64,000 bases of DNA. Origin: Octopus vulgaris. Its lineage: Eukaryota. Under the pieces are notes generated by a model. That model had not been told where the DNA came from, searched no databases, and was given only the letters and a program-made list of their open reading frames with translations. The stretch covers positions 43,214,001 to 43,278,000 of the forward strand of contig OX597832.1 in NCBI GenBank assembly GCA_951406725.2, given 5' to 3'. Positions within the stretch are counted from its first letter, which is position 1; each line of letters begins with the position of its first letter. The translations under genes were made by a program, and so were the position numbers. Positions 58,811 through 60,744 of this stretch are shown here, one piece after another.

Positions 58811-59343
58811 TTCTTATATTGGCAGAAGATCAGAATATATGCAGTTCGAATATTGTCATTAAATTGCCCCCCCCCCCTTATCTGTATGGAATAGAAATAC
58901 AGTTTCATGGGAAAACGAAATACATGTCATCATGACAATGGCACCTGCTCTCAAGTATGAAAATCCTTTTGGGAGAGGTATCGTTTCATACACAGATACT
59001 AAGGCATATATCATGCAGCCATGTCCCTTTGGGTTCCTCTTTTTTGCTATCCTTAGAGTTGAGGTTATGTTGACAGCGTCTTCTGTGGTCTTCATATACA
59101 TAGCTATGAGCATATCTTTCAGATGATATTGGAATTAAGTTGTTTTTTTTGTATTTTTTTGTTTTACTATTTTTCTTAGTAAGGGGTTTTCCATATTTGG
59201 TAATCCTTTTTGCCTTAGTATCTGTGTAAGAAAGTGACGCATAAATAACTACGAAAGTCCTGACCACTGGCCATTGACTGGTAGATAAGGATCTTGATCA
59301 ATTAAAATGTAAGTCCACCTCGACAAAACTGGAGTTTACAATA

Positions 59344-59965
59344 CCAGAAATCGCATGGTCAGCTGCTTTAGCCATCTTCTATGGTCTGCAGCTCTAACGA
59401 ATTCAGTGACTGAAAACCGGAAATCCAGAAATCATGTGATCTACCCTTCTGTCAAACCCTCAGAGGTTGTTGATTTTGTAATCTAAGACCCGGAAGTCAT
59501 GTGGCTTATCGCCCTTTCAATCCTAATGAATAAAAACCAGAACCCATGTGGTTAACTGCTTTATGGGTGTTGATAGTAATGAAAGCCACATGGTCTGCTG
59601 TTCTACCGATTCTATTATGTACCGGAAGTCATATAGTCTACTGTTCTATTGATTCTGGTCAGTAAAATAGTTATATAGTACGCCGCTCTATATATTTTTT
59701 CAATTAAAGTACAAGAAATCATGTGGTTAGCCATTGTATTGGCTCTTTTAACTAAAACATCGGAAGTCATGTGGTGTACCGCTAAATTGATTTCAGTATC
59801 TATAATAGCGGAAGTCATGTGGTTTCCCCACTCAACCGATTCTATGAAAATACCGGAAGTCAAGTGTTCTGTCTCCCTATTGATTTCCGTAACTACATTA
59901 CCGGAAGTCATGTGGTCAGTCGTTCTATCGATCCCATCAAATAAAACAGCGGAAGCCACGTGCTC
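59344..59965. repeat. Diverged ~48-bp tandem array with conserved CCGGAAGTCATGTGG core (~13 units)
   Basis: Cores at ~59344, 59425, 59490, 59537, 59579, 59622, 59664, 59712, 59760, 59808, 59853, 59901 and 59949. Confidence 0.85.
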
Positions 59966-60204
59966 TATCAGGCCATCGATTCTACTAATCTGCCGCTGTA
60001 ATAACGATATCGTTTCACCACATCATTGTTTCACGCTTTTGATATATCTTCTAATTAGTCTCTATCTCTTAATCCAATATTTTCAGGTTATGTCTACAAC
60101 TCTCCTTATTCGTATCTCTTCCAACACTCCTTCCTTTTCGTTCTTTTGTTCCCTCTTCTGTCTGCTCCCCTCTGTTCTTCCTATTCTCTTTCAGTCCTAC
60201 ATAA

Positions 60205-60733: not shown

Positions 60734-60744
60734 ATCATCATCAT

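What the first reader, a model, noticed from the sequence alone, without database searches (positions are those of the whole stretch)
59344..59965. Ancient ~48-bp array that preferentially retains an ETS + E-box composite (CCGGAAGT-CATGTG)
Seen: ~13 units whose ~30-bp linkers are strongly diverged while the core (C/G/T)CGGAAGTCATGTGG is near-exact in about half of the units, including positions that would be codon-third positions in the minus ORF. Established: CCGGAAGT is the ETS consensus and GTCATGTG is the MITF/TFE-type M-box E-box. Inference: a homotypic cluster of overlapping ETS-bHLH sites (enhancer born from a minisatellite), unlike any other repeat in this window.
Basis: partly seen in the sequence, partly recalled or inferred. 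Interest (0 to 1): 0.7.

Follow-up and report, generated by a model that had tools for sequence, protein, structure and literature searches.

The report
Old SINE-derived minisatellite with ETS-like core
This is an old tandem array of about 14 copies of a 48-base unit that likely arose from the head of a very common short jumping element; the transcription-factor-like motif in each copy is better kept than the rest of the unit, but recent changes hit it freely, so it is more likely a decaying repeat than a working enhancer.

Summary
The array is real: 13 recognisable cores at window 59344-59963, base period 48 bp, one such locus in G000. Cores are better kept than linkers (pairwise identity 0.71 vs 0.51; permutation P 0.0008-0.009; P 0.03-0.10 if site rates vary). 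The unit aligns without gaps to the tRNA-like head of the genome's abundant SINE-like repeat. The left flank matches the SINE body, and the last unit runs on into the SINE end. Seven younger loci show the same build (body, repeated head piece, end). The ETS half of the motif already exists in rare dispersed SINE copies; two further changes made the E-box. No coding signal was found. In a related haplotype 11 of 24 changes fall in cores (32% of bases), two of six ETS sites lose GGAA, and three units have lost part of the core. Best reading: a SINE-derived minisatellite, now likely decaying (0.6). An exapted ETS/bHLH cluster is not excluded (0.3), because the long-term core retention is not fully explained and no chromatin data could be examined. 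No host gene was found within about 100 kb by a weak scan.

The parts
59304..59338 (+). Remnant of the SINE body next to the head (B-box side; the SINE itself would read on the - strand), followed by a loss of about 20 bases before unit 1
   Evidence: Model R3, built from 28 SINE copies only, matches 59304-59349 to model positions 23-68, E 0.065; alignment
59339..59991 (+). Tandem array, base period 48 bp: 13 units with a recognisable core plus one sub-unit whose core is mostly deleted (u1b); a further unit is fuller in haplotype X8
   Evidence: X8 has 17 extra bases at 59463-59465 that read like the end of a core
59490..59504 (+). Core of unit 3, exact ETS + E-box composite
   Evidence: 0 mismatches
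59664..59678 (+). Unit 7 core with the ETS half deleted (6 bases)
   Evidence: Alignment; register
59760..59915 (+). Best-kept block, units 9-12 (0-2 mismatches per core); GGAA is changed in units 10 and 11 in the B-type haplotype
59965..60001 (+). Last unit running on without gaps into the SINE terminus (5' end of the SINE on the - strand)
   Evidence: R3 positions 96-125, E 0.18; R2 positions 38-59, E 1.5; alignment
59618..60022 (-). Open frame of 135 codons (and an overlapping + frame from 59679); judged not to be genes
   Evidence: pN/pS among units 1.36 and 1.74; 1-bp deletion at 59826/7 in X4, X9, X5; no homologue

Best explanation
The array is a 48-bp tandem repeat whose unit aligns without gaps to the head of the genome's abundant SINE-like repeat; it likely arose when that piece was duplicated about 14 times inside one old SINE copy, and it is now likely decaying without strong constraint. 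Steps: (1, shown by alignment) SINE body on the left, repeated head piece, SINE end on the right. (2, shown) The same build occurs at younger loci with 2 to about 55 units. (3, inferred) The founding copy was a rare variant that already carried the two changes making the ETS word; two more changes made CATGTG before amplification, so every unit inherited the motif. (4, inferred) Duplication by slippage or unequal exchange, then point mutation, CpG decay and deletions. (5, open) The better retention of cores is put down to uneven site rates, ascertainment, or past weak protection by bound factors.
For: A linker-side pattern is enriched 33 vs 7 control in G000; 8 of the 19 other loci fetched align by eye to the SINE, 4 of 19 are hit at the match site by the SINE-only model R2. 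Model R3 (28 SINE copies, none picked with an array pattern): 4 of the top 5 of 8 hits in 6,001 bases lie in this locus, on one strand, in SINE order. An old subfamily 21-mer has 184 matches vs 1 control; at the 17 unit positions not fixed by that pattern its majority equals the array majority at 12-14 (hand count). Tandem head-piece pattern: 308 vs 51 control; 7 of 8 hand-picked examples have body + repeated head + end. Three of five dispersed hits carrying the ETS-half changes look like SINE copies (E 5.6e-13, 0.0044, 0.28). B-type haplotype: 11 of 24 changes in core bases (31.5% of length); P 0.001 against the old core/linker contrast still holding over all cores; GGAA lost in 2 of 6 ETS sites. 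Core deletions in u1b, u7 and at 59463-5. TG/CA decay states at the ETS and linker CpGs.
Against: Each R3 hit is weak alone (E 0.065-0.18), and R2 does not detect single units. Core retention stays significant under uniform-rate nulls (P 0.0008-0.009) and survives dropping CpG columns (0.77 vs 0.55, hand count). Restricted to motif-defining columns of seven intact units, 3 of 20 changes hit 24% of bases (P 0.26): this fits neutrality and weak constraint alike. The two array-specific changes both complete an E-box. The ETS CpG is kept in 7 of 12 units vs 9 of 28 for two linker CpGs (hand count; not significant by my estimate). Seven X8 differences were not shown by the tool.
Confidence: 0.6

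Rival explanations
1. Same origin, but exapted: the motif-bearing units act as a redundant homotypic cluster of overlapping ETS and bHLH-Zip sites (an enhancer or silencer), selection keeps a few good cores at any time, and single sites turn over.
For: Core retention P 0.0008-0.009, 0.003; the four core differences from the SINE all match the two motifs; every haplotype seen keeps at least three near-perfect composites as far as listed; precedent of a tandem-repeat enhancer with 45 PU.1 sites (PMC13373173, abstract and section 12) and of site clusters formed by local duplication (PMC3188502, abstract).
Against: No depletion of recent changes in cores; two GGAA losses; three partial core deletions; CpG decay implies germline methylation, which blocks ETS binding (PMC3464117 passage); composite not enriched in G000; no target gene found among 138 nearest unique open frames within about 100 kb (weak test).
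Confidence: 0.3
2. Factor binding in the germline promoted duplication of the motif-bearing piece (mutational bias) and slowed its decay, with no benefit to the host.
For: Short insertions at human germline binding sites often duplicate the motif (PMC8559717, passages); the motif predates amplification here (inferred).
Against: The same SINE piece is duplicated at many loci without the motif, so binding is not needed; no germline chromatin data.
Confidence: 0.06
3. A decayed protein-coding repeat (16-residue units) or a structured non-coding RNA.
For: Two open frames of 119-135 codons; one 196-base contig from a run guessed to be RNA covers 59878-60073; + strand fold z -3.35 on 20 shuffles.
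Against: pN/pS above 1 in both open frames; lowest of six frames not significant (P 0.12 and 0.42); frameshift in three runs; no true homologue (the two hits are unrelated long repeats); no Rfam match; - strand z -1.06; the SINE origin explains the unit.
Confidence: 0.04

Closest known systems
SINE-derived satellites (sSats) of squamate reptiles (PMC10702118; abstract and Discussion read)
   Same: Tandem repeats of a SINE portion with a longer terminal unit running to the SINE terminus; short loci with variable units; many independent origins from abundant SINEs.
   Different: Different animal group and SINE family; SINE sequence on both sides (a minor variant in that paper); units only about 50-70% alike; locus is interstitial (43 of 72 Mb of contig C19), not subtelomeric; carries a better-kept motif, which the section read does not describe.
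MORC3-repressed tandem-repeat enhancer of IFNB1 (PMC13373173; abstract and section 12 read)
   Same: Homotypic cluster of ETS-family sites carried by a tandem repeat.
   Different: That element has 45 sites, shown enhancer activity and cluster conservation across mammals; here there are at most 6 ETS words, no activity data and recent site loss.
Overlapping ETS-CRE motif (PMC3464117; passages read) and MITF CATGTG boxes (PMC10539308; passages read)
   Same: CCGGAAGT overlapping a second factor's site by the GT; CATGTG hexamer with a 5' T.
   Different: Second site is an E-box, not a CRE; ETS-CRE is promoter-localised and largely unmethylated, while this composite is not enriched in G000 and shows CpG decay.
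tRNA-derived SINE superfamilies such as MetaSINEs and octopus OR1/OK (PMC4824008; passages read)
   Same: Parent element has A-box-like and B-box-like words on the - strand followed by a conserved body (box consensus recalled).

Membership tests
SINE-derived satellite (sSat) | Unit is homologous to a portion of a SINE | tested here: met
   Ungapped alignment; R3 hits on units 5, 6, 13, each weak; R2 negative on single units
SINE-derived satellite (sSat) | Terminal unit extends along the SINE to its end | tested here: met
   Unit 13 into the terminus; left flank into the body
SINE-derived satellite (sSat) | Parent is a dispersed high-copy SINE-like element | tested here: met
   12 copies in the window vs 0.05 expected; 76 model hits in 457 kb
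tRNA-derived SINE of a named family | Match to a published consensus; pol III boxes; target-site duplication; LINE-like tail | tested here: inconclusive
   Box-like words seen by eye; no tRNA or Rfam match; supplement of PMC4824008 not seen; target-site duplications and tail not tested
Homotypic ETS/E-box enhancer | Multiple consensus sites in a short span | tested here: met
   6 CGGAAGT and 8 CAYGTG in 620 bp
Homotypic ETS/E-box enhancer | Purifying selection on sites across lineages | tested here: inconclusive
   Old contrast present; recent changes 11 of 24 in all cores, 3 of 20 in motif columns of intact units; two GGAA lost
Homotypic ETS/E-box enhancer | Open chromatin, factor binding, activity on a target gene | not testable with these tools
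   No chromatin or reporter data available; no target gene found
Protein-coding tandem repeat | Frame kept across lineages with pN/pS below 1 and protein relatives | tested here: not met
Subterminal array of a DNA transposon or viral homologous region | Other copies of the array with flanks, or a viral source | tested here: not met
   One locus by DNA search (limited sensitivity); two-core patterns give no paralogous array, one unrelated viral contig, none in metagenomes

The most novel reading that the evidence does not exclude
A SINE head variant gained overlapping ETS and E-box sites, was amplified in place into a 14-unit array, and was exapted as a redundant homotypic enhancer whose sites still turn over; the many SINE-head tandem arrays of this genome would then be a recurrent source of new motif clusters in octopus.
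Probability: 0.25. Interest if true: 0.6.

Novelty: new member of a known kind. Interest (0 to 1): 0.3.

Why it matters
It explains a motif cluster that looks designed as the by-product of a SINE's internal duplication, a caution for motif-based enhancer calls in repeat-rich genomes. It extends SINE-derived satellites, described in reptiles, to a cephalopod-type genome with a series of stages from 2 to about 55 units (I saw no such report in the listings of searches; those were not exhaustive). If the array proves active, it would be a compact case of enhancer birth with a known ancestor, intermediates and natural site-loss alleles.

Tried and rejected
Coding repeat: rejected (searches empty; the 2 hits are repeat-summed artefacts; the minus frame was not run against the representative library, the plus frame not against the word-indexed one). 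A longer shared motif around dispersed 14-mer hits (5 of 6 had A before it): not borne out in the 13-mer set. Excess of parallel changes in the B-type haplotype (P 0.0045): dropped, because one of the three G-to-A changes belongs to another column once unit 7 is re-registered; not recomputed. Ancestral CACGTG decaying to CATGTG: dropped as a general account, since the SINE has CAT there; it may hold for unit 8 only. Resemblance of the core to a second SINE family: not followed. Flanking inverted repeat as a MITE: its 16-mer occurs only here. Host gene: 138 nearest unique open frames of 55 aa or more (of 351 within about 260 kb) gave only a Tc3 transposase piece; larger frames seen further off are a kinase about 150 kb and a sulfotransferase about 190 kb downstream; short exons would be missed. 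Expression: no RNA holder listed. Rfam: none. A genome-wide profile search with the unit model could not be run, so remote paralogous arrays are excluded only by patterns and one DNA search. Scripts were unavailable after one search's results were in hand, so later counts are by hand from printed alignments. Earlier findings by place and sequence: nothing.

Full report
Observation. Between 59339 and 59991 lie 13 units with a recognisable 15-base core and a base period of 48. The linkers are homologous and align without gaps over about 19 bases. Cores are better kept: pairwise identity 0.71 vs 0.51, best-window permutation P 0.0008, or 0.61 vs 0.49 and P 0.009 if deleted core bases count as mismatches. 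Simulated duplication trees give P 0.003 at uniform rates, 0.027 and 0.097 with rate variation (first register).

Uniqueness. The 1.3-kb locus has one match in G000. The 14-mer has 10 matches, 4 of them here, vs 7 control; the 13-mer with either E-box has 41 vs 37, and none of the 27 other loci fetched holds a cluster. Tandem arrays bearing CGGAAGT are common but not enriched (132 vs 578); one 22-bp array elsewhere carries the same ETS/E-box overlap.

Not a gene. The two open frames have pN/pS 1.74 and 1.36 among units; the lowest of six frames (0.49) is within the shuffle range and has stops. Three runs show a 1-bp deletion inside both frames. Protein searches gave nothing real.

Origin. A pattern from the linker side was enriched 33 vs 7. 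Eight of 19 fetched hits align to the genome's dominant dispersed repeat, which has 12 copies in the window and shows A-box-like and B-box-like words on the opposite strand (consensus recalled), as a tRNA-derived SINE head would. Array units and SINE heads align without gaps. A model from 23 young copies did not detect single units. A model from 28 mostly older copies, chosen by similarity to the young SINE and not to the array, placed 4 of its top 5 hits in 6 kb in this locus, on one strand and in SINE order: left flank at model 23-68, units 6 and 5 at 79-115 and 94-120, unit 13 and beyond at 96-125 (E 0.065-0.18 each; the fifth hit is a separate SINE fragment at 60742). An older subfamily (184 exact 21-mers vs 1 control) is closer: outside the positions fixed by my pattern its majority equals the array's at 12-14 of 17 (hand count). 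It differs from the array core at positions 4, 8, 12 and 14. The first two changes, which make the ETS word, exist in rare dispersed copies: 5 matches vs 1 control, three of which look like SINE copies, one of them 67 kb from the array. The last two make the E-box and were seen only here in that search. Internal duplication of the same head piece recurs: 308 vs 51; of 8 examples I picked by eye from the first 100 rows, 7 show body, repeated head piece and terminus, with periods of 21 to 56 and 2 to about 55 units, one with period 48. This is the build described for SINE-derived satellites in reptiles (PMC10702118, Discussion).

Recent evolution. Seven runs were laid as contigs. X1 and X2 differ from the window at 1 and 2 places. 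X4, X9 and X5 share a haplotype with 28 differences in 59543-60043 (X5) and none in 59180-59542; X8 has 23 differences, 16 listed. In the B-type haplotype 11 of 24 changes in the array fall in core bases, which are 31.5% of the length; if the old contrast still held over all cores 17% would be expected (P 0.001). Several of these hit already degenerate units or tolerated positions. In the motif columns of seven intact units the count is 3 of 20 against a 24% share (P 0.26), which does not separate neutrality from weak constraint. Two of six ETS sites lose GGAA, which argues against strong constraint. Core bases are deleted in two units in the window, and 17 core-like bases present in X8 are absent from it. 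At two linker CpGs 13 of 19 changed states are TG or CA, and at the ETS CpG 4 of 5 (hand count), a sign of germline methylation; in octopus, methylation is reported on gene bodies and relatively higher on satellites (PMC9476566, passages), and it blocks ETS binding (PMC3464117, passage).

Mechanism and odds. Most likely one old SINE copy duplicated its head piece about 14 times, every unit inherited a motif that the founder had reached by four substitutions, and the array has since decayed (0.6). The exapted-enhancer reading keeps 0.3: core retention survives composition and CpG checks, all four founder changes fit the two motifs, and redundancy would tolerate single losses; precedents exist (PMC13373173; PMC3188502, abstract). 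Binding-driven duplication without benefit (PMC8559717, passages) and coding or RNA function share the rest. The SINE origin itself I put near 0.9.

Limits. No chromatin data, no distant orthologue, no named SINE family, no host gene (one search is a weak scan). PMC13652810 (passages) used ATAC-seq from a squid, which does not cover this locus. Papers seen only as search listings are not used as support. Supplements were not seen.

Verdict. Observation confirmed; interpretation partly supported; a new member of a known kind; interest 0.3.

Noticed in passing
window 59076-59542 vs 59543-60043: Sharp haplotype switch inside the array: the B-type runs match the window over about 460 bases (none of the listed differences) and then differ at about 5.6%; X8 shows the opposite tendency (Fisher P 1e-6 for B). 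Suggests a recombination breakpoint between blocks of different ancestry. Run X5 carries the species label of the window but the B-type haplotype.
   Followed up: partly
window 58984-59006 and 59211-59233: A 23-base inverted repeat (22 of 23 complementary) with 204 bases between the arms; its 16-mer is unique in G000. Local template switch or a hairpin; unexplained.
   Followed up: partly
L197 (G000:C3:1272500-1273770), L172, L183, L192-L195: A series of SINE-head tandem duplications, including about 55 units of 21 bp with higher-order patterns inside one SINE copy.
   Followed up: partly
L083 (G000:C1:149632424) and more than 15 other loci listed: A dispersed family of 52-bp tandem arrays rich in CCGGAAGT and its inverted form; parent element not identified.
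   Followed up: no
L087:1490-1720 and L121:1490-2120: Clusters of four CGGAAG(T) words in non-repetitive sequence; better candidates for ordinary ETS-rich regulatory regions than this array.
   Followed up: no
G000:C5:143893556 and L103 (G000:C1:6225565): Young minisatellites whose units carry an ETS-CRE overlap (38 bp) or an ETS-E-box overlap (22 bp).
   Followed up: no
L057:8292-9998 and L061:3477-4844: A long frame with a protein kinase domain followed by a second kinase-like stretch, and a sulfotransferase-family exon.
   Followed up: no
L125, L126 (ends of one 5,132-base viral contig): Palindromic terminal repeats packed with short ETS/E-box-like words at 12-13 base spacing; same motif logic, no homology to the array beyond the word.
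   Followed up: no
window 59996-60023: Weak inverted match (71% over 28 bases) to unit 9 just right of the array; possibly chance.
   Followed up: no
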